Made by a program: the position numbers and the translations under genes. Under the pieces are notes generated by a model that was not told the DNA's origin, ran no database searches, and worked only from the letters and a program-made list of their open reading frames with translations. Shown here in pieces: positions 41 to 58,594 of a stretch of DNA of 64,000 bases (position 1 is its first letter; every line of letters starts with the position of its first letter). The stretch lies in the NCBI GenBank assembly GCA_044228505.1, contig JBGAUT010000014.1:14725-78724 (forward strand), given 5' to 3'. Source of the stretch: Polyangia bacterium (GTDB lineage Bacteria; Myxococcota_A; Polyangia; Palsa-1104; JAEUJZ01).

Positions 41-1321
41 ATGAGGATAGAACTCCAGCCTGCCCAGAGAAAGGTGATCGACCAACCCGCTGCAACAATT
101 CCCGATTTCGCCGACTCGCTCGATCTGACGTGCGGCGGCCGGTTGGGTGCCCTGCTCCGCAAAGCTTCTAAATCACTTGGGATGACACATGGCGCGTGCG
201 CGGACGCCAAGACCAGCTATCCTGCTCTTATGCACATTGTGCGGATTCAGCGGGGGACTGCGCCGCAGGTGTCTTGGCTCCAAGAACAGCGCTACGAAAA
301 GGAAAAGGATCTGGAGCGAGATCTGGCTGCGGCACCGCTGCTGCTTCAGCAGGTGATGGGAACCCCGATCCATCTGCTCGCAACAAATTTTCGACTACCG
401 GGGGATGAACGGGTAGCCGCGCTGTATCTCGATAGCGATGGACGGCTGCTCATCTGCGAAGTGCGACTAGCCCGCAGCTCGGGATCGACCCGGGAGCTGC
501 TCGGACAGCTCCTCGATCACGTGTCCACGCTGTCGCAATATCGGATCGAGGATCTCAGCACCGCGCTATCCGGCAAGCTCGAAGAAGTGCTACGTCAGCT
601 CAGCCATGGTGAGGTCGAACGCTACGCCCAACTGAGTCAGCAGTTGAGTGAAAACCTCCGTGCAGGAAGGGTCGGCTTGGTACTCGTGCTCGACCGCGCA
701 CCCGCTCACCTGCAGCGCATCTGCCGCTATCTGTGCCAGAACGTAAAGATCCAGTTCGTGCTCCTGACGCTCAAGCGATTCCGTGCCAGCGATGACAGTG
801 ACATCGTGGTGCCAACACTGGTTGCGCAAGCGCAGCAGCAGCAAGCGCAGGCCAATCTACTCGAGCTGGCCGTGCAGTTTGCGCAGCCTGGTCACTCCGT
901 CGTGCCACTGGACAGCATCAAGCATCGGCCAAACTGGCTGGCGCTGTATCCCCGTAGCTGGCCGCAGTCCGTTCACTTCGAGTTTCTCATCCATCCTGCA
1001 CAAGACTGTCGGATCGGAGTCGAGCTGCACCTAGAGGATCGCGATCTGCCACACCTGCGTGAACTCGCACGCTTCCTTGGTTCCTCGGACATGCAAGATG
1101 CACTGAAGGTCCACTTTGATAGTGCGAGGATTGTGTGGGACCAAAACTACCAGGGCTGTGGTCGTTTGGCGGTGATGTTCGACGCAGCCACTGAGCCCGA
1201 TGGTCTGTCTGCCGCGATGTCGGTTCTGATGGAGCTAACCTATGCCCGCATCAGTGAGAGACTCCGCACACTGGGCAGAGCCACCGAAACACCAAGACCC
1301 ACGGTGGCCCCAAAGGACTAG
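41..1321 (+). CDS. hypothetical protein, possibly 5'-partial at the window edge
   Basis: 426-aa ORF with GC-rich third codon positions like its neighbours. No recognisable catalytic motif. The frame may be open to the window start. Confidence 0.4.
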   Translation: MRIELQPAQRKVIDQPAATIPDFADSLDLTCGGRLGALLRKASKSLGMTHGACADAKTSYPALMHIVRIQRGTAPQVSWLQEQRYEKEKDLERDLAAAPLLLQQVMGTPIHLLATNFRLPGDERVAALYLDSDGRLLICEVRLARSSGSTRELLGQLLDHVSTLSQYRIEDLSTALSGKLEEVLRQLSHGEVERYAQLSQQLSENLRAGRVGLVLVLDRAPAHLQRICRYLCQNVKIQFVLLTLKRFRASDDSDIVVPTLVAQAQQQQAQANLLELAVQFAQPGHSVVPLDSIKHRPNWLALYPRSWPQSVHFEFLIHPAQDCRIGVELHLEDRDLPHLRELARFLGSSDMQDALKVHFDSARIVWDQNYQGCGRLAVMFDAATEPDGLSAAMSVLMELTYARISERLRTLGRATETPRPTVAPKD

Positions 1322-1390
1322 CTTCGGACTGCTTCCACGGATGATCTGCGAGCTTGGTTGGGAGTCTCCGCAGAGACTCTGCAAAGCGGA

Positions 1391-2341
1391 CTACTTCGGC
1401 TTCTGGAGCGTGCAACCGGCGCGGGTCAGATCAATGTTGTTGGTCGAATCCAGGCAGGAATAGATCTGGTAGAGCTGCTGTCCGTAGCTTGCCCCTTTGG
1501 TCGCAGTGACCCGACCACTGGCATCTACTTCGCACGGGTTGTTGAGTGTGCAGGAGGCACCGCTCTCATTACCGGTGTTGTTGATGCCGATGACTGCTTT
1601 GGACTCCACATCGATGAGCGGTGATCCCGAGGTACCACCGATGGTCTCGCATCCCGGCTGGGTAAAACGAATCGAGTCCCGGAAAGTCCAGGTACCCTCG
1701 CGCAGCTCTGGAACAAAGTGATCGATCGCGCACGAGTAGATCTTTTTCCAGTACCCAGAGACGATCCGGAGAGCAGTCCCCTCTGTTGGGCGGCGCGACT
1801 GGATCACCAGCGGAGCAACCCGGAACCGCGTCGCGAGCTGTGCATAGGTCTGCGTCAAACGATAGATCGCAAAGTCCGAGCCCGTCATGGTCGCGTACAG
1901 CATCCGCTGAGCACGCAGGGTTCCCAGGGAACGAGCGCTTCCATCGAGCAGCGTGAAGGTCCGACTCGATGCCTGATCGACAATTGCATCACCTGCGGTA
2001 ACAAAGCCACTCAAGCAGTGACCATTGGTAAGCACCATCGCGTAGTCATCGGTGCGCGAGGTGGAAAAACGCACCAGCGAACCCGAGCAGTTCGACAGGG
2101 CGACGATCGATGTAAAGTCAACCCCGGCGGCATCCAGTTCCTCCCATGTGGGAGTCTGCGCGGCGGCTTGCTGCGCCTCTTCGGGATAGCCAACCGGCAG
2201 CGCGAACGCCTCTGCGGACGCTCCGGTGACCACGAACAGAGCGGTCAGCATGCCGGTCCACAGCGAACGCAGAATGCCACGGGAACGGGTGAAGGAAGAG
2301 GGGCTGACCTGATCAGACGATCCACCGAACGCACTACGCAT
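1391..2341 (-). CDS. secreted trypsin-like (S1, chymotrypsin-fold) serine protease
   Basis: His motif TNGHC and Ser motif GTSGSPL, with a signal peptide MRSAFGG...VVTGASAEA. GGAGGA sits 7 nt upstream of the ATG at 2341. The ORF track extends to 2479, but that upstream Met has no RBS. Confidence 0.75.
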   Translation of the reverse strand: MRSAFGGSSDQVSPSSFTRSRGILRSLWTGMLTALFVVTGASAEAFALPVGYPEEAQQAAAQTPTWEELDAAGVDFTSIVALSNCSGSLVRFSTSRTDDYAMVLTNGHCLSGFVTAGDAIVDQASSRTFTLLDGSARSLGTLRAQRMLYATMTGSDFAIYRLTQTYAQLATRFRVAPLVIQSRRPTEGTALRIVSGYWKKIYSCAIDHFVPELREGTWTFRDSIRFTQPGCETIGGTSGSPLIDVESKAVIGINNTGNESGASCTLNNPCEVDASGRVTATKGASYGQQLYQIYSCLDSTNNIDLTRAGCTLQKPK

Positions 2342-2565
2342 AGGTTGTCCTCCAGTTTGGGTACGAGTGATTGCTTGGACGGCAACACTTCTCGCTTGGG
2401 AATGAACCTCTGCGCAAGATGGGAGTTTTGTTCTCGACTCTGTCCCAAGCTGGGGTCTGTTCCCCCAGCGTAAGCGCAAGAATCGAAAGACATCGACGGT
2501 GAGCAGAGAGAGAAAGGGGTACGAAGGCGAGACAACAGAGTGGAACTCTGTCGCGACAGCGCGTG

Positions 2566-3063
2566 CTAGTTGTATAGCAGGTCGAACGTCACCGTAATCG
2601 GCATGGTCTGACCAGCGGCCAGCTCAAACTTGTTCGTAAACGGCAACGTCACCGGATCACCAGCGACCGGATCACGCGTGGTGGGAGTGCTCTTGTCGCC
2701 GATGTCGAAGAAGCCCAGAAAGGTGTACGTCTGCGGGGTCAGCGGCTTACTCGTCCAGCTCGCCGCGCTGAGCTTGTCGGTCTTCAAGTCGATCGGCAGT
2801 TCTAGGCTCGCGGCGGCAACAGCACCTTTGCGTGGACCCGTCAGCGTCACATCCTCGCTCAGGAAGAAGTCTCCGTACGCGGTTCCCTTGATCAAGCTAT
2901 CCTTCTTGAGCTGACCACGTACACCGTCAGAGATCTTGAACCGCACGACAATCTTGGTCTCGGTCACAGACGGCTTCTCATCATCAGGAATCGGCTCGTC
3001 TTTGGGAGCACAAGCAGAGGACAGAAGAAGCACCGCGAGCGGAAGTGTCAACAGTGCGCGCAT
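2566..3063 (-). CDS. lipoprotein of unknown function
   Basis: Signal peptide plus lipobox LLSSAC. Its ATG overlaps the stop of the upstream gene (TAATG), implying translational coupling. Confidence 0.6.
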   Translation of the reverse strand: MRALLTLPLAVLLLSSACAPKDEPIPDDEKPSVTETKIVVRFKISDGVRGQLKKDSLIKGTAYGDFFLSEDVTLTGPRKGAVAAASLELPIDLKTDKLSAASWTSKPLTPQTYTFLGFFDIGDKSTPTTRDPVAGDPVTLPFTNKFELAAGQTMPITVTFDLLYN

Positions 3064-3995
3064 TACATCTCCCCCCGGCAGCCCCATGGATCTTGAGTGC
3101 CCAAGATCACACCGAAAGTACTGCACATCTCGTGAGGGTACGACAGCGGCTCCGCAGTGTTGTTGTTCCAAGTACATTCTGTCTTCATAATCGTCCCCTT
3201 TCGCAGATCCATGGGCTTCTCTTTTAGCAGCAAGGTCGGCGGGTTATCGCGGTAGTGCGAATGCCACTCATCTATGCGAAACAAATCCTTCATCGTGTCA
3301 GCTGGAGTCTCCGCGTACGAGAGGACGTAACGCATTCCCCACTCATGCATGTGCCCACCCGTCATCATCAATTTGTAGTCCTGAGGTACCACGCATTTAT
3401 AGCTGCCAGATGCCTGCTGACCCGGCTTGACTTCGAAGAAGGGAAGGAAGGAGGCGAACGCAGCAGCCCACGTCTTGACAGTGGAAACGTCGACACGACG
3501 AAAGCGAAGTAGATCGCGGATTCGAATCGGCTCCTTGCTGGTGTTGATGTAGTGCGACTGCATCACAATCGGCGTACCCTTGCGCAAAATGAACGCATGC
3601 GCGGCAGGCAACTCAAAGCCAGGTATGGTCAGCAAGTCGTACTTCGCCATATCTTCCGGTTTGGAGCAGTCTTCCACAGATCCATCGGGTAGCGGGTTCT
3701 TAGCCTTCAGAATCACGAAGTGATGGCCAAACTTACCCTGCTGAGGGTCTGCGAAATCGTACGGCACATCTGCGCCTTGGTAGAACTGATGGCTGCAAGA
3801 AATCTTTTCTTCACCCGGCTTCATAATCAGTTCCGAACCGACGAAGTCCAAAAATTTGGGATCAGTCGCAGGGATCGGGACGCGCACATCAACAGCGGTA
3901 CGTTGCAGCATCTCTTCCTCGGTTTCCTGCGGGGCACAGGCGAAGGAAAAGATCGCGAGGGAAGATAAACACAGAAGTGAGTGGAGACGTTTCAT
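3063..3995 (-). CDS. lipoprotein, PHM/DBH-like type II copper monooxygenase fold (Cu2_monooxygen-like)
   Basis: Lipobox FSFAC. Ordered motifs GHHF (HH), GGHMHEWG (HxH) and HEMCSTF (EMC) match the CuH and CuM ligand pattern of peptidylglycine alpha-hydroxylating monooxygenase and dopamine beta-monooxygenase. Confidence 0.55.
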   Translation of the reverse strand: MKRLHSLLCLSSLAIFSFACAPQETEEEMLQRTAVDVRVPIPATDPKFLDFVGSELIMKPGEEKISCSHQFYQGADVPYDFADPQQGKFGHHFVILKAKNPLPDGSVEDCSKPEDMAKYDLLTIPGFELPAAHAFILRKGTPIVMQSHYINTSKEPIRIRDLLRFRRVDVSTVKTWAAAFASFLPFFEVKPGQQASGSYKCVVPQDYKLMMTGGHMHEWGMRYVLSYAETPADTMKDLFRIDEWHSHYRDNPPTLLLKEKPMDLRKGTIMKTECTWNNNTAEPLSYPHEMCSTFGVILGTQDPWGCRGEM

Positions 3996-4018
3996 CACAG
4001 GACTCCTTTGGTGAAGGA

Positions 4019-4429
4019 TTAGTTGTTGGGGGCACCGGCAAGAATCCAAGAACGAATCTGCTCGATCTCCTCTGGATCGAGCGCCTGCGAAGGAGGCATC
4101 CGCGCTCCGAACTTGGGCTTGTCGCTGGCAATCTTGTCAAATAGTAGTGAGTTGTCTGGATCTCCCGGAACCACCCGCATCCGGTCAGGAGCCAGGGTTG
4201 ATTTGACGTTGACCAGCGTATCAAACGTCGCGGCCCCCAGGCTCAAACCACCCGCTGGCGAACCGGCCGCAGCGTGACAGGTGGCAAAGCTACAGCTTCG
4301 ATGAAACACTTGCTCTTCGATCCGACTGAGCGGAGGGGCAGGTGAGCATCCAAAAGAGAGTGCGGTGGCCCCAAGCAGAAGCAGGCCGGGAAGGACTCCT
4401 AAAGCAGATTCCGAACCACTACGGACCAT
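4019..4429 (-). CDS. lipoprotein with one c-type haem domain (PSCyt1 / Planctomycete-cytochrome-C-like)
   Basis: Lipobox LSFGC, a single CSFATCH haem motif, and a downstream RMPP...EEIEQIRSWILAGAP pattern. GGAGG sits 8 nt before the ATG at 4429. Confidence 0.6.
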   Translation of the reverse strand: MVRSGSESALGVLPGLLLLGATALSFGCSPAPPLSRIEEQVFHRSCSFATCHAAAGSPAGGLSLGAATFDTLVNVKSTLAPDRMRVVPGDPDNSLLFDKIASDKPKFGARMPPSQALDPEEIEQIRSWILAGAPNN

Positions 4430-4495
4430 GGCGGATGCCTCCACATTGGGAAGTGTACCGCCCACTTATCGCGCCCAGATTGTCTTGTCAAGACG

Positions 4496-6586
4496 CTACA
4501 GTTCTCCACGGACTCCCAGCGAAGGAAGAATCGGCAGACCCGTGATCGCAGCGTGTTGGGTGTAGTCGTAGGAGTAGACCATCTGTTCCTGCGCCGGATT
4601 GTTGTACAGGTTCGAAATGTCCAAATACAACTTGAACACCATCCGCTTGGTCACAAACGTGCGGTCGATCCGCAAGTCGAGCTGATGAAAAGGAGCGAGT
4701 CGTTCACTGTTACGCAGGCTCGACGGGACTGGCTGATACAAGTCGGTATCGCTGTCATAAAATCCTCCCCTCACCGGAGTCTGGGGAATGCCACTGATGT
4801 AGCGGAACCGAAGCCCGATTTCAAACTTGTACGGCAGGTAGGCGTGAGCCGCGAGGATCAGGATGTGGGTTTGGTCAAAGTCAAACAACCGAAAGTCACA
4901 CAGCGCACAGTCCGCACGCTCACTCCGCAGCAAAGAATAGCTGAGCCAACCAAAGAAGTACTTCGACAGACTCTGCCGCAGCAGGAGCGTTCCACCAAAG
5001 ATCCTTCCCCGTACTTGGGAGGCCGTACGCTCGGGATGCAAATCGGTCGGTTGTAGCCCGCTGCCAAAACGCCGTAGGAACGTCGAGGTTCCCGCAAAAT
5101 CCCATAGATGTTTGTATAGTCCCGTAAGCTCCACCACGAGCCCCTTCCAGATCGCCTGTTCCACAGCAACAGAGAGCTGAGTCGCTCGTTCCAGTCGTAG
5201 CTCGACATTCCCAAAGGAAGAGAAGTAGTCCTGCACCGCCGGGTCTTGGGAATACAACCCGATTCCGAGCTTGACCGTAGTGAGTGGCGATACCGATATC
5301 TTCGCTGATAGACGTGGATCCAACGAAAAGCGGTGCAAAAATCCGAAGTAGTCAAAGCGGATCCCTGGCACAACCGTCAGACGCTCGTGAAGACGTGCCG
5401 TCAGCTCCGCATAGAGCGCAGGATTGGCAAAGAAGGCTTGGTCTTGCGCGACGATCTGCGAGAGCGAGCCAGGTGGTTTCTGAAACTCTCCTTCGCGTAC
5501 TGGCGCAGGCACGGCTGCATCGAGCCACACGTAAGAGGTCTGGATGTCGGTACCCAGCATGAAACGGAATCGCGAAGACAGCTCCCGTGAAGACTCGATT
5601 CGAAAGTCAGTGCCAAGCGTTTTCACCGCCATTGACACCGTCCGCCCCAGCTCTAGGTCGGTCTCTGTAAATCCGCTGGTGCTTTGAAACAGTACATCCC
5701 ATCCGGCAAAGCGCCGCTGATACCGCAGCTGCAAGCGATGAAACATAATATGCGTCGAAAAAGTCCCATTTACCGATGGGTCAACATCCTGAGGACGGGC
5801 AAAGCGAAGAGCGATCTGATCGTCTGCGCCCAGAATCATCACCCGCAGCGTGCCGCCAGCTAGCGCGTACTTCAGCACCGCTTGGTAGTCCCAATACACC
5901 GGGGCATTGGTGAACCGGAGTCCGGGTGGATCACCGAGCACCTTTCCCATCAAAGCGAGTCCGGCATCCACATAGCTCCGGCGCAGACCGAGCAGAATCG
6001 ATCCGCTGGGCTCTTGCGACTGCGGACTCCTCGATGGCAGCGGACCTTCGACTTCGACCCCAATGTGGACCGGATTTACGTCGAGCGCCGCGTGCCAGCG
6101 GTCTTTCTTGCCAGCGCGAAGCTCCACATCGATCGTGCCGGCGGTTGCGCGACCGTAGCGAACCCCGAAGTTGTGGGGCAGATACGTCACGCTATCGAGG
6201 AAGTTCGCAGGCACCACCGAGGTAAACCCACCGTAATGATAGAGCTGCGGCACCTCGGCGACGCCCAGATACACGCGAGAGTCTGACGGACGTGCTCCCT
6301 CGATGATAAACAGCCCGGTGTTCAAAGGTGGCCGCGCCGCACCGGGCAGATTCTCAATCGCCCGCAGCGGATCGCCGAGCGTCCCCGGCATCTTACGCAG
6401 CTCCTCGGTGTGAAGCGTCTGCTTGCTGATTTCTTCACGCAGCGCCGGATCTTCCGCCGTCACCACCGATTCGAAGCGCCCTTGGGCACCGGATCGCAGC
6501 GGCAGCAATCCGAGCAGTACAATCACTGTTGCGGCGACGATAAATGACCGATTTGCCACCTTCAGAGTGGGCAGATAGCGCCACAT
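4496..6586 (-). CDS. TonB-dependent outer-membrane receptor
   Basis: Signal peptide, plug-domain motif DPLRAIENLPGA, and a long beta-rich C-terminal region. Confidence 0.75.
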   Translation of the reverse strand: MWRYLPTLKVANRSFIVAATVIVLLGLLPLRSGAQGRFESVVTAEDPALREEISKQTLHTEELRKMPGTLGDPLRAIENLPGAARPPLNTGLFIIEGARPSDSRVYLGVAEVPQLYHYGGFTSVVPANFLDSVTYLPHNFGVRYGRATAGTIDVELRAGKKDRWHAALDVNPVHIGVEVEGPLPSRSPQSQEPSGSILLGLRRSYVDAGLALMGKVLGDPPGLRFTNAPVYWDYQAVLKYALAGGTLRVMILGADDQIALRFARPQDVDPSVNGTFSTHIMFHRLQLRYQRRFAGWDVLFQSTSGFTETDLELGRTVSMAVKTLGTDFRIESSRELSSRFRFMLGTDIQTSYVWLDAAVPAPVREGEFQKPPGSLSQIVAQDQAFFANPALYAELTARLHERLTVVPGIRFDYFGFLHRFSLDPRLSAKISVSPLTTVKLGIGLYSQDPAVQDYFSSFGNVELRLERATQLSVAVEQAIWKGLVVELTGLYKHLWDFAGTSTFLRRFGSGLQPTDLHPERTASQVRGRIFGGTLLLRQSLSKYFFGWLSYSLLRSERADCALCDFRLFDFDQTHILILAAHAYLPYKFEIGLRFRYISGIPQTPVRGGFYDSDTDLYQPVPSSLRNSERLAPFHQLDLRIDRTFVTKRMVFKLYLDISNLYNNPAQEQMVYSYDYTQHAAITGLPILPSLGVRGEL

Positions 6587-7163
6587 TCTGTGGTCATCGT
6601 ACCACCGAGTCCGACTAGACGGCGCTGCTCCCCTTTACCGGAGGCATCGGTCGGGGACCAGATGGTGGCATCGGATATCCAACGAGCCACATGGGCAACT
6701 GCTCAGGGCGTGTCATACCTACATCCAACGCATGAGGTGGGGCGAAGTTTTATGACACTTTTGCTTGCTATTTGTATGGCATGATACATGCATAAATCAA
6801 ATAGTATTGCGTGCCGATGAGTCAGAGTTCATAAGAATGTGTCCGGGCCGTTGTCCGCTGCGGAGGATCGCAGCGGATCAAGTTGACTGAATGAGATGAG
6901 GGAGAGTCACACATGATGCGACCACTGGGCAGACCGACCCAGCGGCCGGAGCAGCGGTCTTCACGAAGATTGGGCAGCGGAAAGTAACAAAATATTTTTT
7001 GTGCTTTGCATTGCAAATCACGCAAGTATTCTAAAGATCGGTTAAAAACAAACTTGCTCCCCAGCCCATACAACGCGCTGGGAGCCTGTCAGGGGGACTC
7101 GGTCGTTTCGCGCCACGCTCGCGATCTCCGTCTTGCCTGCTTACAGAACACAGGGAGGATTCC

Positions 7164-8831
7164 ATGAGCCGTCCACTTCTCACGCGTACCTTGGCCGGGG
7201 CCTTGCTTAGCCTGACGGCCGCCGCGTGCACCGCGCCACAGGTAGGAAGCCCGTGTCCGATTCCGACCAATGCTGACGCCAAGACCCGCACCGAAGCCGT
7301 CCAGAAGTGCTTCGGCCTGATCGCAGGAAATTCGAACGATTTCCGACTGAAGAAGGATGTGGACATCCTGTTTGTGATCGACAATTCACCGTCGATGTCG
7401 CCCAAGCAAAAGGCGCTCGCAGAGAACATTCCCAAGTTCATCGAGAAGATCGATAGTTTTGGCGTGAACTATCACGTCGGTATCGTCACCACCGATGTCG
7501 GAACCACGGTTTCCGATGGTGCCACCTGGGGCGCGGGCTCGGAGCCGTCGTGCGACAGCTTCACCGGTGACGATGGACGACTGCAAGACATAACCTGCGA
7601 CAAGCGCAACACCGTCTCTCCCGAGGCGGCCAACGCTTGTGCCACGCTCTGCCCGGACAACCGCTTTAAGCCGACTGATGGCAGCAAGTACATCTCCAAG
7701 GTCGACGGCAAGACCAACGTTCCAGCGGATCTGAAGCTCGATCCGATGACGGGCAAGATGGTCGACTACGGTCCCACCAACGCCTTCAAGTGTATGGCGC
7801 TCGTTGGTGATGCTGGCTGCGGCGTCGAAGGCCAACTTGAGGCGGTCAAGCGTGCGATCACCAACTCGGCCAACACCGGCTTCATCCGCGACAACTCGGT
7901 GCTCGCGGTCATCTTCATCACCGATGAAGACGACTGCTCGGTGAAGGCATCGCGACGGTCGGAGCTAAACCCCGGCTATCGCAACTGCAACGCCGCGCAG
8001 CCCGACTCGTACGACTGCTACAAGGTCGACTATCGCTGCATGGCCCGCTCGCTCACCTGCAACGAGCCGATGACGACTGCGGGCGGCAAGACTGGCTGCA
8101 AAGAACGAGCCGACAGCTTCCTTGAGCCGGTCAAGACCTACTACGACGAGCTGCTCAAAGTTCGCAAAGCGGACAAGCTCATCGTCAGCGGCATCTGGAC
8201 CTTGCCGAACATCGATGTTGCCAAGGGCGGCACGGTCGGCATCATCGGTGGCCCGCTCACCTCGGATCTACGCCGAGATCCAGCTTGCGTGAACTCCACC
8301 AACAGCGCCGTGGTTGGTCAACCGCAGTTCCGTATGTCGCAGCTTGCCAACATGTTTGGCAACGACACCGAAGGGCTTCCCAATGCGCCGCAGATGAACG
8401 TCTGCGACACCGCTAAGTATCCGGCGGCACTCGATGCCATCGCCAAAGCGGTCGAAAAGAAGCTGGTGCCCTGCCTGCCGATCACATTGAAGACCGTCAA
8501 TGGTCAGCCGATCTGTTTGGTCGGCGATGTCGATTCCACTACGCCCGACGCCAACCCCGAAAAGTACTTCCCGCTGTGTACTTCCGGCTGCTGCGAGGCC
8601 TGGGCCAGCACCTCGACGCCATCTCTCAGCGACAAGGGCATCCAGGCTGCTTGCGCGGGTGAAACGACCGAGGCCTGCTACTGTGCGATCAAGAGCAAGG
8701 ACGCGAGCGTCTGCAAGGCCGGCACGCCCGAAGGCGGCGTCAACGGCGGTGTCGTGACGGGTGTGTGGCGGAAGAACAACGCCAACCCGCCGGCTGGCAA
8801 GGTCGTAAACTTCCGCTGCGTCGGCTTCTAA
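7164..8831 (+). CDS. von Willebrand factor A (vWA) domain lipoprotein, Cys-rich
   Basis: Lipobox LTAAAC and MIDAS motif DILFVIDNSPSMS, with many Cys. GGGAGGA RBS upstream. Confidence 0.8.
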   Translation: MSRPLLTRTLAGALLSLTAAACTAPQVGSPCPIPTNADAKTRTEAVQKCFGLIAGNSNDFRLKKDVDILFVIDNSPSMSPKQKALAENIPKFIEKIDSFGVNYHVGIVTTDVGTTVSDGATWGAGSEPSCDSFTGDDGRLQDITCDKRNTVSPEAANACATLCPDNRFKPTDGSKYISKVDGKTNVPADLKLDPMTGKMVDYGPTNAFKCMALVGDAGCGVEGQLEAVKRAITNSANTGFIRDNSVLAVIFITDEDDCSVKASRRSELNPGYRNCNAAQPDSYDCYKVDYRCMARSLTCNEPMTTAGGKTGCKERADSFLEPVKTYYDELLKVRKADKLIVSGIWTLPNIDVAKGGTVGIIGGPLTSDLRRDPACVNSTNSAVVGQPQFRMSQLANMFGNDTEGLPNAPQMNVCDTAKYPAALDAIAKAVEKKLVPCLPITLKTVNGQPICLVGDVDSTTPDANPEKYFPLCTSGCCEAWASTSTPSLSDKGIQAACAGETTEACYCAIKSKDASVCKAGTPEGGVNGGVVTGVWRKNNANPPAGKVVNFRCVGF

Positions 8832-9088: not shown

Positions 9089-10756
9089 ATGCGACGTTCC
9101 CAACTCACTCTCTCGATTGCTGGGCTCGGTTCGGCCCTGCTGCTTTCCGCCTGCTCCTCTCCGCAGGTTGGATCGACCTGCCCGGTGCCGACGACGGGCG
9201 ACTCCAAAGCCAAGATGAAGGAGTTCAACAAGTGCTTTAGCCAGCTCGGCGAGAGCGTGGTTGATGCGCGGCTCCGCAAGGACGTCGACATTCTGTTCCT
9301 CATCGATAACTCCCCGTCGATGTCTCCGAAGCAGAAAGCACTTGCGTCGAACATCCCCAAGTTCATCCAGAAGATTGACGCCACGGGCGCGAACTACCAC
9401 GTTGGTATCTCGACGAGCGATATTGGTAGCAACGTCCAGCCGGGCGTGCCCTGGGGCGGCAACATCGGCAAGTGCGATAGCTACGAGGGTGACGACGGTG
9501 TGCTACAGGCCGTTCCTTGCACTACGCGCAACACCGTGACGCCCGATGCTCGCAACGCTTGCGCTCAGCTGTGTCCGGACGACAAGTTCGTGCCGACCGA
9601 TGGCCGTCGCTTCATCTCGAAGGTCGACGCGGTCACCAACGTGCCGGTCTCGATGGAAAAAGATCCGGTCACCGGCAAGATGATCGACACCGGCCCGATC
9701 AAGGCCTTCAAGTGTATGGCGCTCGTCGGTGACGACGGTTGCGGTATCGAAGGCCAGATGGAAGGTGCGAAGCGGGCGCTCGATGGACATCGCAGCGAAA
9801 ACTCCGGCTTCCTCCGCGCCAACTCGGTGCTCGCGGTGATCTTCATCACCGATGAAGACGACTGCTCGGTGCAGATGGCGAAGCGCGATCAGAACAACCC
9901 GAGCTACCGTGACTGTGACCCGACCCAGCCGGACTCACCCGAGTGCTACAACGTCGACTTCCGCTGCTTGGCTCGCTCGATCCAGTGTAACGAGTCGACG
10001 CTGACCACTGGCCCCAAGATTGGCTGCAAAGAGCGACCTAACAACTATCTCGAGCCCGTCGAGAAGTACTATCGCTTCTTTAGCAACCTGCGCTCGCCGA
10101 GCAAGCTGCTCGTCAGCGGCATCTGGACGCTGCCCCCGATCGACGGTGGTGGCAAGGTCGAGATTGCACGCGCCGGTGGCACCACCACCCCGAACCTGAA
10201 CCGAGCGGGCGGAGCCGGAGCGTCGTGCGTCTACGTCGGCGATCAGAGCGTCTACGGCCAGGCTCAACTGCGACTGTCGAAGTTCGCCAAGCAGTTCGGA
10301 ACCGATGCCAAGGGCCAGGCCAACGCGCTCGAAGTCTCGATCTGCGACATCGATAACTACCCGTCGGCGCTGGATCGCATTGCGAAGGCAATTGAGCAGC
10401 GGCTCCAGGCGCAGTGCTTGCCAGTCACGCCGAAGAACGATGCCAGCGGTAACCCGATCTGCATCGTGGGCGACGTCGACGAAGCCTCCCCCGCTAGCTC
10501 TCCAGATCCCGAGACGGCCTTCCCGGTCTGCTCGAAGACCTGCTGCAATGCGTGGGCCGCGACGAGCACGCCGACCCCGGGTGATGACTCGATCAAGAAT
10601 GCTTGCGGCGGCGAAGCCCGAGACTGCTACTGCGCCATCAAGAGCAAAGACCCGAACATTTGCAGCGACACCGTGGTTGCTGGAGTGTGGCGCAAGGGTG
10701 GCAGCCAGCCACCTCCGGGCAAGGTCGTCAACTTCCGCTGCGCTGGTGGCGGTTGA
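9089..10756 (+). CDS. vWA domain lipoprotein, tandem paralogue of 7164-8831
   Basis: Same length (555 aa) and architecture as the first copy. Lipobox LLSAC, MIDAS DILFLIDNSPSMS, and the shared C-terminus GKVVNFRC. GGAGG RBS upstream. Confidence 0.8.
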   Translation: MRRSQLTLSIAGLGSALLLSACSSPQVGSTCPVPTTGDSKAKMKEFNKCFSQLGESVVDARLRKDVDILFLIDNSPSMSPKQKALASNIPKFIQKIDATGANYHVGISTSDIGSNVQPGVPWGGNIGKCDSYEGDDGVLQAVPCTTRNTVTPDARNACAQLCPDDKFVPTDGRRFISKVDAVTNVPVSMEKDPVTGKMIDTGPIKAFKCMALVGDDGCGIEGQMEGAKRALDGHRSENSGFLRANSVLAVIFITDEDDCSVQMAKRDQNNPSYRDCDPTQPDSPECYNVDFRCLARSIQCNESTLTTGPKIGCKERPNNYLEPVEKYYRFFSNLRSPSKLLVSGIWTLPPIDGGGKVEIARAGGTTTPNLNRAGGAGASCVYVGDQSVYGQAQLRLSKFAKQFGTDAKGQANALEVSICDIDNYPSALDRIAKAIEQRLQAQCLPVTPKNDASGNPICIVGDVDEASPASSPDPETAFPVCSKTCCNAWAATSTPTPGDDSIKNACGGEARDCYCAIKSKDPNICSDTVVAGVWRKGGSQPPPGKVVNFRCAGGG

Positions 10757-55240: not shown

Positions 55241-58200
55241 TTAGAAGGTCAGGCGCCAGCCGAAGCGCATAAACAACGGGAGCTGGTAGCCGGTCGGCTG
55301 ACCGTAGTTCGAGTTGAACGTCGGCAGCGTGCCGTTGTTGGCCTTCAGGTGCTTGAGGTCGGTGATCTGGCCGTTCACGATCGGAGACACCGTGGTCGCG
55401 GTGAACTCGTCATCGACGTTGGTGACCTCGCGCTGATTGAACAGGTTGACCACGTCAACAAACAGGTTCATCCCCACCGTCTGGGTCAGCTTGTGATCGT
55501 AGCCGACGTGCAAGTCGAACTGAGTCACCGTCGGAGTACGACCACCCGAGCCACGTGGGAGCAGGTACACTTCGCGACGTCCGTAGTACGGGTGACGACC
55601 GAGAACTTCGACCGGACGACCGCTGGTGGCGGTGAAGGTAATACCGATGGTCAGCTTGCCCTTGTCACCAAACAACGGCTGGTCATAAAACGCCGTCGCC
55701 TTGAAGTTGTGCGGGCGGTCGGTGGGCAGCGGACCGTTGCGGTTCGCGAGCAGGTCGATCAAGTCGAACTGCGACGAGATGTTCGGGTCGCTCTGGCCGT
55801 TCGACGATGAGAACGTACCGGGGTAGTTACCGAGCGTACGCGAGTAGGTGTAGCTCGAAATCACCGAGAAGCGGTTCGACAGCCGCTTGTTGAGCGTCAG
55901 CACCAGGGCATCGTAGTTGCGGCGGGCTTTCGGGAACACCGAGCCAACCAGCTTATACGCACCGAGCAGTGCCACTGCATCCTGATAGGCCAGCTGATCA
56001 GCCACCTTGGCATTGGCTGCCGTGCCAGCGGGCTTTAGGCGATCCACCTCGTCTTGCAGCTGCTTGACGACGTTCGGGTCCGAAGGCACACCGGGGTTTG
56101 CGAGCAGGTAGGTCGTACCGCCGTCCGGCGACATATCTTCGACGATGTTGCCGAGGTCGCGGTGGATGTAGCTGACACCCACGACGATATCCAACCCGAT
56201 ATCGTAGTTCACGCCGAGCGTGATTTCGTTGATGTACTGACCCTGAACGACCGGCGAGATGAGCGGAGCGCGACCACCGTTGACCACGCCACCTTCGGCC
56301 GCCAGGAACTGGCAGCCCGCCGAGGGCACCGGCACTGCGCGACCACCAGGCTGAAGCGTGACTCTGTCGCAGTTTGCGCCAGGCACGAATCCAGAGGAGT
56401 ACATACCTTCAGCGGTAAGCTGACGATCGTTGATGTTGAGCGGAATCGACTGATAGAACCGCCCGTAGTTGAAGAACACCTTCGAGCGACCAGGCCGCGA
56501 GGTCAGCTGCGTAAAGTCATATACTAGACCGATACGCGGTGCCCAGTTGTCCTTGATATCAATATAGCGATGGCCATCCGCGCCATATAGCTCTTGGCCT
56601 TCCCAGCGCACACCAGCATTGAGCACCAGACCCGGTGCCCAGCCAATGCTCCAAGAGTCGCGCAGATACGCCGAGAAGTTCTGGGTGTAGCTGCGACCCT
56701 CAAAGTTGTTGAGGTGTTCGATCTCTTTGGTCTCCAGGTTCTGGCGAGCGTACTCGCGAGTAATCTGGATGGTGCCGTCGGGCTGCTGGCTATACGCCCG
56801 GTGACCGCTCGACGGATCGTTCGGATCGAGATCCGCGCCGGTATAGGTACGGTTGTTGTAGCTATCGAGATACTCAAACTCGAAGCCAGCCTTGATGGCG
56901 TGAATACCACGCAGCGGGTTCCACTCCCCGGTCAAGTGCAGGAAGTACGTCGCTGAGGCAATGAGCTGGTGACGCTGCAGCAGGCTGTCCCCGTACTGTC
57001 CATAGCCACGGGTATAACCAGTGAGCGGACACGGGTTAAACAGCGTCGAACGACCCATCGCATCCATCTTCATCTGACGGCGGCAACCACCTACGTCTTC
57101 GAAGTCGGACAGCGTGAATGGGTCGGTCTGAGCGGCTGCCCAGGCGATGCTCGGCAGGTTCGGCTGCTCGGGATTTACCGTCGAAGCCTGGTAGTGATAA
57201 CCGTACAGGACGTCAAGCTGGAGCTTCCGGTCAAACAGCTTGCCGATGTAGTGGAAGATCGCGTCGTGGACTTGGTCCTTCTGGTTAAACCGCTGCGTGC
57301 CCAGATCAACCGCCCGAATGGCACCGTAATCGTCGGTGATCTTCGGCGAAGCAATATAGGTGAGCTGGATGTTGTGGTCTTGGCTGAGGTTGAACTGGAT
57401 CTTGGCGATACCGTTGTAGAGACGCTCGACCGCTCCAGCTTCCTGAGCATAAGAGATCTCGTCGGTACGCAGAGCCAGCGTCCTCGGTCCATCACACAGG
57501 GCGGAGTTCGCCAGGTAACTCGGGCACTGGAAGTCCGGATCGATCGCCGCTTTGCCAGTCGAAGCGTCAAACGACAGAGACCGGGCGCGCCGCTGATACA
57601 GGACTTCCTTAAAGGTCGGCGCAAAGCCAATGTAGAACCAGATCCGATCTTTGACGATCGGGCCGCCGATTTCGAAGCCGAAGTCGTACAGCAGGTTGTT
57701 GCGACTGCGGGTGATGAGTGCTTCACCGAGTCGTGCAACACCGCGTGGCTCAAGCTGGAACGGCTGGAACGAGCCGAACACCGAGCCCTTGAACTCGTTG
57801 CTACCAGTCTTCGTGGCGATGTTGACGACACCACCCGTGGCGCGACCGAATTCGGCCTGGTAGCCACCGGTGATGACGTTGATTTCCTGAATGAAGTACT
57901 GCGAAAGCTCCGTACCAATCAGTCCCTTGTTGGGGTCTGAGGTATTGAGACCATCGATGATGTAGTTGTTCTCGCTGCCGGTTGAGCCCGAGATCTGCAC
58001 ACCGACGTCACCACCTGCCGCACCGGTCTTACCGGCTACGTCAGCGGTGCCTGGCGCAAGCGTCAGGACCGACTCGAAGGTACGGCCACGAACCGGCGTG
58101 GCACGCATGACTTCCTGGTTCACTTCTACGCCCGTCGAGGTACTCGCGGTGTCGACCACTGGTGCCGACTCACGAATGACCTTGACCTCGCGCTTGGTCG

Positions 58201-58594
58201 AGCTGAGGTTGATTTCGCCGTTGACGGTAACGGTCTTGCCGAGGCTCAGCCGGATACCGGGGCGTTCGACGCGTGGCTTGTCATCCGCACCGAAGAAGAA
58301 GCTGACCTTATAGTCATCACCCGATGGAAGCTGGGTGATGATATAGCGGCCGTTGTTGTCGGTGATCTCAGCCTGCTCGCCTTGCAGAGCCGGGCTCTGC
58401 ACGACCACCGTGACACCCGCCAGCGGCTTGCCATTCTCGTCTTTGACGGTGCCCTGAATCTGGGCCAGCGTCTGCTGGGCGAGCGCCACTTGCGGTGCAA
58501 GGTACGCACCCGGAACCACCAGCAACCAGGGCAGCAGCTTGGCCCGCAACACTACGGCGGCCTTACCCTGGTGTTTCGAATTCTTTCGTCGCAT
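55241..58594 (-). CDS. Oar-like TonB-dependent receptor with an N-terminal carboxypeptidase-regulatory-like domain
   Basis: 1117 aa with a signal peptide. N-terminal GTVKDENGKPLAGVTVVV domain, a plug region, and C-terminal beta-barrel ending in RLTF. Confidence 0.8.
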   Translation of the reverse strand: MRRKNSKHQGKAAVVLRAKLLPWLLVVPGAYLAPQVALAQQTLAQIQGTVKDENGKPLAGVTVVVQSPALQGEQAEITDNNGRYIITQLPSGDDYKVSFFFGADDKPRVERPGIRLSLGKTVTVNGEINLSSTKREVKVIRESAPVVDTASTSTGVEVNQEVMRATPVRGRTFESVLTLAPGTADVAGKTGAAGGDVGVQISGSTGSENNYIIDGLNTSDPNKGLIGTELSQYFIQEINVITGGYQAEFGRATGGVVNIATKTGSNEFKGSVFGSFQPFQLEPRGVARLGEALITRSRNNLLYDFGFEIGGPIVKDRIWFYIGFAPTFKEVLYQRRARSLSFDASTGKAAIDPDFQCPSYLANSALCDGPRTLALRTDEISYAQEAGAVERLYNGIAKIQFNLSQDHNIQLTYIASPKITDDYGAIRAVDLGTQRFNQKDQVHDAIFHYIGKLFDRKLQLDVLYGYHYQASTVNPEQPNLPSIAWAAAQTDPFTLSDFEDVGGCRRQMKMDAMGRSTLFNPCPLTGYTRGYGQYGDSLLQRHQLIASATYFLHLTGEWNPLRGIHAIKAGFEFEYLDSYNNRTYTGADLDPNDPSSGHRAYSQQPDGTIQITREYARQNLETKEIEHLNNFEGRSYTQNFSAYLRDSWSIGWAPGLVLNAGVRWEGQELYGADGHRYIDIKDNWAPRIGLVYDFTQLTSRPGRSKVFFNYGRFYQSIPLNINDRQLTAEGMYSSGFVPGANCDRVTLQPGGRAVPVPSAGCQFLAAEGGVVNGGRAPLISPVVQGQYINEITLGVNYDIGLDIVVGVSYIHRDLGNIVEDMSPDGGTTYLLANPGVPSDPNVVKQLQDEVDRLKPAGTAANAKVADQLAYQDAVALLGAYKLVGSVFPKARRNYDALVLTLNKRLSNRFSVISSYTYSRTLGNYPGTFSSSNGQSDPNISSQFDLIDLLANRNGPLPTDRPHNFKATAFYDQPLFGDKGKLTIGITFTATSGRPVEVLGRHPYYGRREVYLLPRGSGGRTPTVTQFDLHVGYDHKLTQTVGMNLFVDVVNLFNQREVTNVDDEFTATTVSPIVNGQITDLKHLKANNGTLPTFNSNYGQPTGYQLPLFMRFGWRLTF

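What the first reader, a model, noticed from the sequence alone, without database searches (positions are those of the whole stretch)
1391..6586. Co-directional cluster: TonB receptor, cytochrome-c lipoprotein, PHM-like copper monooxygenase lipoprotein, lipoprotein and S1 protease
Five minus-strand genes sit in close succession, with 24-bp and -1-bp spacing between the middle three (a TAATG overlap). They pair a PSCyt1-like single-haem lipoprotein with a lipoprotein carrying the HH / HxH / EMC copper-ligand pattern of PHM and DBH monooxygenases. Eukaryotic PHM and DBH take electrons from ascorbate. A dedicated periplasmic c-type cytochrome partner plus an outer-membrane importer would be a distinct bacterial solution for a copper monooxygenase acting on an imported, possibly peptide, substrate. 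To my knowledge this wiring is not a described system.
Basis: partly seen in the sequence, partly recalled or inferred. Interest (0 to 1): 0.7.

Follow-up and report, generated by a model that had tools for sequence, protein, structure and literature searches.

The report
Bacterial PHM-like copper monooxygenase with cytochrome partner
A myxobacterial three-gene cassette encodes a copper monooxygenase built like the animal hormone-processing enzymes PHM and DBH, a small cytochrome-c-like protein that probably feeds it electrons, and a beta-sandwich helper protein. The neighbouring outer-membrane receptor and protease genes are not conserved with it in other genomes.

Summary
The five minus-strand genes, the TAATG overlap and the short spacer are real. 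The 310-aa lipoprotein (3995-3063) is a true PHM/DBH homologue. A family profile hits rat PHM over both domains (E=2e-8). All six copper ligands and three disulfides align and are invariant in 44 homologues. An AF2 model (pLDDT 93.5) matches only PHM/DBH at the top of the PDB search (E~1e-13).

Across 80 related loci, all apparently Myxococcota MAGs, the conserved unit is three genes: the cytochrome-c-like lipoprotein, the PHM-like lipoprotein and a 165-aa beta-sandwich lipoprotein. They stay together through four different gene orders. Natural fusions exist for both pairs: cytochrome+PHM-like (L007, P0116, P0218) and PHM-like+beta-sandwich (P0134, P0137).

The TonB-type receptor and S1 protease accompany the cassette only in one near-identical strain. 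PHM's peptide-carboxylate residues (R240/N316/Y318) are not conserved. The importer and peptide-substrate parts of the idea are therefore unsupported.

The cytochrome always carries CX4CH or CX5CH, never CXXCH, with an invariant Met-Pro, so haem binding is likely but unproven.

I found no published description, and every source calls these proteins hypothetical. I rate it a new variant of a known enzyme kind, with unknown substrate.

The parts
3063..3995 (-). PHM/DBH-like two-copper monooxygenase lipoprotein (310 aa; lipobox Cys20)
   Evidence: A profile of 44 homologues hits rat PHM chains at E=2e-8 over both domains. Foldseek against the PDB gives only PHM/DBH for ranks 1-31, at E from 3e-14 to 4e-11. 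The AF2 model has pLDDT 93.5. 11 of 44 homologues hit PF03712. The window protein itself has no Pfam hit.
3720..3725 (-). Codons for H91-H92, the equivalents of PHM CuH ligands H107 and H108
   Evidence: Invariant in A1. Aligned to the HH of PHM. Codons read.
3552..3560 (-). Codons for Q146-S-H148, the equivalents of PHM Q170 and CuH ligand H172
   Evidence: Q146 and H148 are invariant. QsHY aligns to PHM LQVHY.
3345..3353 (-). Codons for H215-M-H217, the equivalents of PHM CuM ligands H242 and H244
   Evidence: Invariant GHMHEWG motif. Aligned to the PHM HTH motif.
3126..3128 (-). Codon for M290, the equivalent of PHM CuM ligand M314, within the invariant EMC motif
4019..4429 (-). Cytochrome-c-like lipoprotein (136 aa; lipobox Cys28), the proposed electron donor
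   Evidence: PSCyt1 at 26 bits against a 22-bit cut-off. The family profile A3 hits the dihaem cytochrome FoxE (5mab) at E=1.2e-9, and more weakly the hydrazine synthase haem domain and cytochromes c6/c552. It lies within 2 kb of the PHM-like gene in 38 of 56 loci with enough flank. It is fused to the PHM-like domain in L007, P0116 and P0218.
4274..4294 (-). CSFATCH, a CX4CH putative haem-attachment motif (C46, C51, H52)
   Evidence: The family has CX4CH in 51 of 55 members and CX5CH in 4 of 55, never CXXCH. C, C and H are invariant.
4097..4099 (-). Codon for M111 of the invariant Met-Pro, the putative distal haem ligand
   Evidence: M82 and P83 of A3 are invariant. They align to the MPA of cytochrome c6.
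2566..3063 (-). Beta-sandwich lipoprotein (165 aa; lipobox Cys18), a conserved third component with no conserved His, Cys or Met
4496..6586 (-). TonB-dependent-receptor-like outer-membrane protein: adjacent, but not a conserved partner
   Evidence: Pfam barrel model at 1.8e-8. Homologues occur in only 2 of the 80 related loci: the near-identical strain L001, and L042 about 5 kb from the PHM-like gene.
1391..2479 (-). Secreted S1 (trypsin-like) protease: adjacent, but not a conserved partner. The likely start is M47 at 2341.
   Evidence: Trypsin_2 at 6e-11. A homologue is found only in L001. About 224 nt separate it from the lipoprotein stop.

Best explanation
Window 4429-2566 is a self-contained three-gene cassette for an envelope-anchored copper monooxygenase system found in Myxococcota-type bacteria.

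The catalytic subunit is a lipoprotein with the two-domain fold of peptidylglycine alpha-hydroxylating monooxygenase (PHM) and dopamine beta-hydroxylase (DBH). It keeps both uncoupled copper sites: CuH from H91/H92/H148 and CuM from H215/H217/M290.

Inferred: the small lipoprotein encoded upstream is a mono-haem class-I-like c-type cytochrome with an unusual CX4CH attachment motif and His/Met ligation. It would take the role that ascorbate plays in animals, passing single electrons from the respiratory chain to CuH. CuM would then activate O2 and hydroxylate a C-H bond.

The third lipoprotein is a metal-free beta-sandwich. It acts as an accessory subunit, for scaffolding, spacing from the membrane or substrate presentation.

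The substrate is unknown and is probably not a glycine-extended peptide. The TonB-type receptor and the S1 protease are strain-specific neighbours, not parts of the system.
For: Shown:
- Homology and ligand conservation: the A1 profile against PDB sequences hits PHM at E=2e-8, with HH, H, HxH and M all aligned, together with Q170 and the cysteines of three PHM disulfides, C81-C126, C293-C315 and probably C227-C334, whose C334 partner lies beyond the aligned region.
- Foldseek ranks 1-31 are all PHM or DBH.
- PF03712 is hit by 11 of 44 homologues.
- Linkage: both partners lie within 2 kb in 33 of 56 loci with at least 2 kb of flank, and in 33 of the 42 closer loci. The order varies: Cyt-PHM-Lipo, Cyt<>PHM-Lipo (divergent), PHM-Lipo-Cyt and Lipo-PHM-Cyt.
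- In about 1.1 Mb of fetched loci, the cytochrome family occurs essentially only beside the PHM-like gene.
- Fusions: cytochrome+PHM-like in L007 (one ORF with a single lipoprotein signal), P0116 and P0218 (hhalign 99.7%). PHM-like+beta-sandwich in P0134 and P0137.
- No fourth conserved neighbour. The only other recurrent families are response regulators and Ser/Thr kinases at scattered distances, and the neighbours differ completely in L081 and L083.
- Cytochrome nature: PSCyt1 above its cut-off. The profile hits FoxE, the hydrazine synthase haem domain and cytochrome c6. In the hydrazine synthase hit the two cysteines align to a CXXCH motif with a two-residue gap, the FoxE alignment starts after the first cysteine, and in cytochrome c6 the Met-Pro aligns to MPA. 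C, C, H, M and P are invariant.
- CX4CH is an accepted haem-c motif (bioRxiv 10.1101/2024.01.05.574438, PMC10734462).
- The same window encodes multihaem cytochromes, including a protein with the Pfam 'CxxxxCH...CXXCH' domain. The organism therefore probably matures such motifs.
- Precedent for a c-type cytochrome reducing a bacterial copper monooxygenase: PMC8981238.

Inferred: haem occupancy, the direction of electron flow, monooxygenase chemistry, and the role of the beta-sandwich protein.
Against: - The window protein itself misses every Pfam and NCBIfam model.
- The haem motif is never canonical, and its spacing varies (CX4CH or CX5CH). Covalent haem attachment is therefore unproven. Cys, Cys, His and Met are also copper ligands.
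- 9 of the 42 closer loci, and most of the distant Polyangiaceae and Kofleriaceae-type loci, have no cytochrome gene within 2 kb. The cytochrome is thus not obligatory, or it is encoded elsewhere.
- Nothing here shows which way electrons flow, that O2 is the co-substrate, or what the substrate is.
- I could not read model coordinates, so the Cu-site geometry was not measured.
- All homologues come from uncultured MAGs and there are no expression data.
Confidence: 0.55

Rival explanations
1. The small CX4CH protein is not a haem protein. It would be a copper chaperone or thiol-based redox protein that uses Cys-X4-Cys-His plus Met to bind Cu(I) and load the two copper sites of the PHM-like enzyme. 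Reducing power would then come from a small molecule or another protein.
For: The motif is never CXXCH, and its spacing varies between 4 and 5 residues. The invariant residues C, C, H and M are all typical Cu(I) ligands. Tight linkage and fusion would fit a dedicated metallochaperone equally well.
Against: There is significant sequence homology to genuine c-type cytochromes: PSCyt1 above its cut-off and FoxE 5mab at E=1e-9, plus weak hits to hydrazine synthase and cytochromes c6/c552/c551. The cysteines and His align to the haem motif, and Met-Pro aligns to the distal-ligand position. CX4CH is an accepted haem motif. Permanent fusion is unusual for a chaperone that is needed only once per enzyme molecule.
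Confidence: 0.15
2. One reading: the TonB-dependent receptor imports a (peptide) substrate, which the periplasmic PHM-like enzyme modifies with electrons from the cytochrome. The S1 protease would process the substrate or the product.
For: The five genes are co-directional and closely spaced in the window. The arrangement recurs in L001. A TonB-receptor homologue lies about 5 kb from the PHM-like gene in L042.
Against: L001 is essentially the same organism (88.8% nucleotide identity over 6 kb). The receptor and the protease are missing from the other loci, including the 70%- and 56%-identical relatives, whose neighbours are DabA/NuoL-like proteins or an HTH regulator. The protease lies about 224 nt downstream of the lipoprotein stop. 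The PHM peptide-carboxylate residues R240, N316 and Y318 are replaced by G, S and F.
Confidence: 0.07
3. The PHM-like protein works as an oxidase or dehydrogenase, or as a peroxygenase using H2O2, rather than as an O2-dependent monooxygenase. In the oxidase case the cytochrome accepts electrons and passes them to the respiratory chain.
For: Nothing in the sequence fixes the direction of electron flow. Other copper enzymes with tethered cytochromes work in either direction. Linkage and fusions are neutral on this point. That some copper monooxygenases (LPMOs) use H2O2 efficiently is my own knowledge.
Against: The complete CuH/CuM ligand set, including the CuM methionine and Q170, is invariant. 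In every characterised member of this fold, that set serves O2 activation with external electron supply.
Confidence: 0.15

Closest known systems
[quoted passage not shown]
   Same: The same two-domain beta-sandwich fold. The same six copper ligands in the same order, the conserved Gln170 equivalent and three shared disulfides. Like them it is an exported protein.
   Different: Identity is only about 15%, below the Pfam thresholds for the window protein. It is a bacterial lipoprotein. The peptide-carboxylate residues R240/N316/Y318 are absent. There is no PAL or DOMON domain. It is genetically coupled, and sometimes fused, to a c-type-cytochrome-like protein and to a beta-sandwich protein. The eukaryotic enzymes instead rely on ascorbate and cytochrome b561 (own knowledge).
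Bacterial lytic polysaccharide monooxygenases reduced by the c-type cytochrome domain of Cbp2D (Cellvibrio japonicus; PMC8981238)
   Same: A bacterial extracytoplasmic copper monooxygenase that receives electrons from a c-type cytochrome rather than from a small-molecule reductant.
   Different: An LPMO has a single histidine-brace copper and an unrelated fold. Cbp2D is a large multidomain secreted protein. No tight operon or fusion of this kind has been described.
Cytochrome-c-tethered copper nitrite reductases (for example Ralstonia pickettii NirK with a C-terminal cytochrome c domain; own knowledge, not checked here)
   Same: A copper enzyme with separate electron-entry and catalytic copper sites. 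Its cytochrome c donor occurs either as a separate protein or naturally fused, as seen here.
   Different: It has a cupredoxin fold with type-1 and type-2 copper, and it reduces nitrite rather than inserting oxygen.
PSCyt1 (PF07635) 'Planctomycete cytochrome C' domain and the dihaem cytochrome FoxE
   Same: Sequence homology, the position of the Cys..Cys-His motif, and a C-terminal W-I-x-x-G-A helix.
   Different: Canonical members carry CXXCH. This family always has two or three extra residues between the cysteines, and it is a stand-alone mono-domain lipoprotein.

Membership tests
PHM/DBH copper type II monooxygenases | Two-domain beta-sandwich fold | tested here: met
   The AF2 model has pLDDT 93.5. 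Foldseek ranks 1-31 against the PDB are all PHM or DBH, with E from 3e-14 to 4e-11 and TM 0.5-0.63 over about 300 columns.
PHM/DBH copper type II monooxygenases | CuH site: His107, His108, His172 | tested here: met
   H91, H92 and H148 are invariant in 44 sequences and align to these residues in the HMM alignment to 1opm.
PHM/DBH copper type II monooxygenases | CuM site: His242, His244, Met314 | tested here: met
   H215, H217 and M290 are invariant and aligned.
PHM/DBH copper type II monooxygenases | Scores above the Pfam gathering thresholds of PF01082 and PF03712 | tested here: not met
   The window protein has no Pfam hit at E<=0.1. 11 of 44 homologues hit PF03712 at E<=0.01, and some relatives exceed the 23-bit cut-off (P0218 at 26 bits, P0161 at 25.2 bits). 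PF01082 is never hit.
PHM/DBH copper type II monooxygenases | Copper binding, O2-dependent hydroxylation and ascorbate as reductant | not testable with these tools
   This needs the purified protein.
PHM specifically (peptidylglycine substrate) | Residues binding the C-terminal glycine carboxylate and backbone: Arg240, Asn316, Tyr318 | tested here: not met
   They align to G213, S292 (A/S/T/V in the family) and F294.
PHM specifically (peptidylglycine substrate) | Association with a PAL (lyase) domain or gene | tested here: not met
   No conserved neighbour exists beyond the cytochrome and the beta-sandwich genes. No PAL-like domain appears in any fusion protein. I did not run a dedicated PAL profile search of the window.
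c-type cytochromes (class I-like / PSCyt1) | CXXCH haem-attachment motif | tested here: not met
   The motif is CX4CH in 51 of 55 members and CX5CH in 4 of 55. CX4CH is a recognised minor motif; CX5CH is not among the motifs listed in the survey read.
c-type cytochromes (class I-like / PSCyt1) | Sequence homology to known cytochrome c domains | tested here: met
   PSCyt1 at 26 bits against a 22-bit cut-off. The profile against PDB sequences hits FoxE at E=1.2e-9, with hydrazine synthase alpha and cytochromes c6/c552/c551 at E 0.05-0.3.
c-type cytochromes (class I-like / PSCyt1) | Distal axial ligand (Met) and export to the compartment where haem is attached | tested here: met
   The invariant Met-Pro aligns to the MPA of cytochrome c6. 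An N-terminal lipoprotein signal peptide with a lipobox Cys is present.
c-type cytochromes (class I-like / PSCyt1) | Covalently bound haem | not testable with these tools
   This needs expression and haem staining or mass spectrometry.
TonB-dependent transporter-linked utilisation locus | Receptor gene conserved with the enzyme genes across genomes | tested here: not met
   The receptor occurs in 2 of the 80 related loci, one of them the same species.

The most novel reading that the evidence does not exclude
Myxococcota carry an ascorbate-independent version of the PHM/DBH copper monooxygenase. It would be a three-lipoprotein machine in which a dedicated CX4CH c-type cytochrome wires the enzyme's CuH site directly to the respiratory chain, and a beta-sandwich subunit presents a non-peptide envelope or environmental substrate. 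That would be the first protein-driven electron supply for this enzyme class. It would also give a bacterial, genetically tractable model for the unresolved CuH-to-CuM electron-transfer problem.
Probability: 0.45. Interest if true: 0.75.

Novelty: new variant of a known kind. Interest (0 to 1): 0.62.

Why it matters
PHM and DBH make amidated peptide hormones and noradrenaline. How electrons travel from the CuH site to the CuM site about 11 Å away is a long-standing mechanistic puzzle (own knowledge).

All characterised members are eukaryotic and ascorbate-driven. A bacterial family with a natural protein electron donor, sometimes fused in one chain, would offer three things:
- a defined one-electron donor for kinetic and structural work;
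- evidence that this copper chemistry exists in prokaryotes with a different redox supply;
- a new and fairly large enzyme family awaiting a substrate (452 clusters at 50% identity with E<=1e-30).

It also supplies a family of mono-haem-type proteins that uses only CX4CH or CX5CH. That bears on the specificity of cytochrome c maturation systems.

Tried and rejected
- Direct Pfam and NCBIfam scans of the PHM-like and beta-sandwich proteins gave nothing. Only profile and fold comparison revealed the PHM relationship.
- tblastn and iterated HMM searches for the TonB receptor and the S1 protease in 80 loci were negative apart from L001 and L042.
- All-against-all clustering of neighbouring ORFs looked for a fourth partner. 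It found only response regulators and Ser/Thr kinases at scattered distances, which I rejected as background.
- The promoter and terminator scan of 1200-7200 was uninformative: 0 promoter-like sites, and terminator-like sites below the shuffle expectation.
- The C-terminal domain of P0200-type long proteins is not significantly related to the beta-sandwich family (hhalign E=0.049), so I did not count it as a fusion.
- The afdb50 fold library was unavailable.
- Seven literature searches for bacterial PHM/DBH homologues found nothing relevant. Subscription-only papers were not searched.
- An early tblastn with a mis-framed cytochrome query was discarded and redone.

Full report
**Observation.** The ORF list and the sequence itself confirm five co-directional minus-strand genes.
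- A TonB-dependent-receptor-like protein at 6586-4496 (Pfam barrel model, 1.8e-8).
- A small cytochrome-c-like lipoprotein. Its best start is ATG 4429, preceded by GGAGG, and it stops at 4019. It is 136 aa with an LSFGC lipobox.
- A 310-aa lipoprotein from ATG 3995 (preceded by AAGGAG) to 3063.
- A 165-aa lipoprotein whose ATG (3063-3061) overlaps the preceding TAA by one base (TAATG), ending at 2566.
- A trypsin-like S1 protease at 2479/2341-1391 (Trypsin_2, 6e-11).

The spacer between the second and third genes is 23 nt. The gaps on either side of the middle trio are larger: 66 nt after the receptor and about 224 nt before the probable protease start.

**The PHM-like protein.** The window protein has no Pfam or NCBIfam hit. 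A homologue search returned 52 proteins, all unnamed or 'hypothetical'. In an alignment of 44 of them, the invariant residues are H91, H92, Q146, H148, H215, H217, E289, M290 and six cysteines.

A profile of that alignment hits rat PHM structures at E=2e-8 over residues 59-297, covering both domains. The alignment makes these matches:
- H91/H92 on PHM H107/H108, and Q146/H148 on Q170/H172.
- H215/H217 on H242/H244, and M290 on M314.
- The cysteines on PHM C81, C126, C227, C293 and C315.

I checked the numbering by counting from the printed alignment. Eleven of the 44 homologues hit PF03712 on their own. An AlphaFold2 model built on the alignment has mean pLDDT 93.5. Its 31 best Foldseek matches in the PDB are all PHM or DBH, with E from 3e-14 to 4e-11; the next hits are unrelated double-jelly-roll proteins at E>1e-5.

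However, the PHM residues that grip the C-terminal glycine (R240, N316, Y318) align to G213, S292 and F294. A glycine-extended peptide is not indicated as the substrate.

In a library of 1.84 billion cluster representatives, the family profile finds 452 proteins at E<=1e-30 and 2279 at E<=1e-10. This is a sizeable family.

**What is conserved around it.** A scan of one genome per species returned 80 loci. Almost all are labelled Myxococcota, Nannocystaceae, Polyangiaceae or Kofleriaceae, or carry vaguer names. I called ORFs in all of them and searched with iterated HMMs built from the five window proteins.
- The beta-sandwich lipoprotein was found in 52 loci.
- The cytochrome-like protein was found in 54 loci.
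- The receptor was found in 3 loci and the protease in 2, counts that include the window itself.

Among the 56 loci with at least 2 kb on both sides of the PHM-like gene, 33 have both partners within 2 kb, 6 have only the beta-sandwich gene, 5 have only the cytochrome gene and 12 have neither. Among the 42 closer relatives the figures are 33 with both, 39 with the beta-sandwich gene and 33 with the cytochrome gene.

The three genes occur in four arrangements: Cyt-PHM-Lipo as in the window, Cyt and PHM-Lipo divergently transcribed, PHM-Lipo-Cyt, and Lipo-PHM-Cyt. Staying together through rearrangement argues for function rather than inherited gene order.

Clustering all neighbouring ORFs gave no fourth conserved partner. 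In relatives at 70% and 56% identity, the flanking genes are entirely different: DabA with proton-antiporter-type subunits, or an HTH regulator with DUF362. The only locus repeating the receptor and the protease is L001, which is collinear with the window at 88.8% nucleotide identity and is effectively the same species.

**Fusions.** Five natural fusions tie the partners to the PHM-like domain:
- In L007, one ORF (6869-8287, 472 aa) carries a single lipoprotein signal, the cytochrome-like domain with CAFQSCH and Met-Pro, a Pro/Ala linker, and then the PHM-like domain without a signal peptide of its own. The beta-sandwich gene follows it.
- P0116 has the same architecture as L007.
- P0218 belongs to a much more distant branch of the PHM-like family and also has an N-terminal cytochrome-like domain (hhalign probability 99.7% for both).
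- P0134 carries the beta-sandwich domain at its C-terminus (hhalign probability 100%, E=8e-45 for P0134).
- P0137 has the same architecture as P0134.

Both partners are thus linked to the PHM-like domain by Rosetta-stone fusions. This strongly implies physical association.

**The cytochrome-like protein.** It passes the PSCyt1 gathering threshold (26 against 22 bits). A family profile hits the dihaem cytochrome FoxE at E=1.2e-9, and more weakly the haem domain of hydrazine synthase alpha and cytochromes c6, c552 and c551.

In the hydrazine synthase hit the two cysteines and the histidine fall on the haem-attachment motif with a two-residue gap between the cysteines. The FoxE alignments start after the first cysteine. 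In the cytochrome c6 hit the invariant Met-Pro falls on the MPA that provides the distal Met. C, C, H, M and P are invariant.

The motif is never CXXCH. It is CX4CH in 51 of 55 family members and CX5CH in 4. CX4CH is an accepted minor haem-c motif (bioRxiv 10.1101/2024.01.05.574438 and PMC10734462). The same window encodes MtrC/MtrF-like multihaem cytochromes and a protein with the Pfam 'CxxxxCH...CXXCH' domain, so the host probably matures such motifs.

Haem binding is therefore likely but not shown. Because Cys, Cys, His and Met are also copper ligands, a chaperone role remains a rival.

**Mechanism proposed.**
Shown:
- a PHM/DBH-fold protein with both copper sites intact;
- three co-localised lipoproteins that are genetically and, in some lineages, covalently linked.

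Inferred:
- the cytochrome carries haem c and reduces CuH one electron at a time, replacing ascorbate;
- CuM binds O2 and hydroxylates an unknown, probably non-peptide, substrate.

A c-type cytochrome reducing a bacterial copper monooxygenase has a precedent in the Cbp2D-LPMO pair (PMC8981238).

I found no description of this system, and all database names are 'hypothetical'. I rate it a new variant of a known kind, with interest 0.62. Most of the value lies in a protein-driven, sometimes fused, bacterial PHM/DBH system that could be studied mechanistically.

Noticed in passing
window ~3900-2950, compared with L001 2070-3020: L001 is collinear with the window at 90-100% nucleotide identity in the flanks. 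Identity falls to 66-77% across almost exactly the PHM-like gene plus the first ~100 nt of the next gene. Protein identities are 98% for the cytochrome, 76% for the PHM-like protein and 93% for the lipoprotein. Neither allele is closer to the next relative, L002. This looks like an allelic replacement or recombination tract, or a hypervariable enzyme. It remains unexplained.
   Followed up: partly
window 33546-36059 and 36065-37729 (+): Two adjacent large multihaem cytochromes. They match MtrC/MtrF domain II/IV and Cytochrome_C7, and the second also matches the Pfam 'Geobacter CxxxxCH...CXXCH' motif domain. This suggests extracellular electron-transfer capacity and a maturation system that handles CX4CH.
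   Followed up: no
window 7164-8831 and 9089-10756 (+): Two tandem paralogous 555-aa Cys-rich lipoproteins with an N-terminal MIDAS/VWA segment. They match NCBIfam NF052240 'MIDAS family adhesin' at 3e-14, far below its cut-off.
   Followed up: no
window 55241-58594 (-): A second, much larger TonB-dependent-receptor-type outer-membrane protein (1117 aa). It has CarboxypepD_reg, Plug and OMP_b-brl_4 domains and is unrelated to the cassette.
   Followed up: no
P0161, P0244, P0215, P0246: Some PHM-like proteins carry a Cys-rich C-terminal extension of about 90-110 aa, instead of the beta-sandwich or cytochrome domain. This is a further, uncharacterised architecture of the family.
   Followed up: no
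L027 8811-9227 and 9237-9656; L060, L070, L071, L077: L027 has two tandem copies of the cytochrome-like gene after the PHM-like gene. Several Polyangiaceae and Kofleriaceae-type loci have tandem PHM-like paralogues with no detectable cytochrome or beta-sandwich partner.
   Followed up: no
L021, L034, L041, L042, L045, L047, L052, L067: MAG records titled Klebsiella pneumoniae, Enterobacteriaceae, Enterobacterales or Bifidobacterium breve carry this cassette, which otherwise occurs in Myxococcota-type genomes. The record taxonomy is probably wrong.
   Followed up: no
window 41-1321 (+): A 426-aa ORF just downstream of the protease gene, on the opposite strand, has no significant family match.
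   Followed up: no
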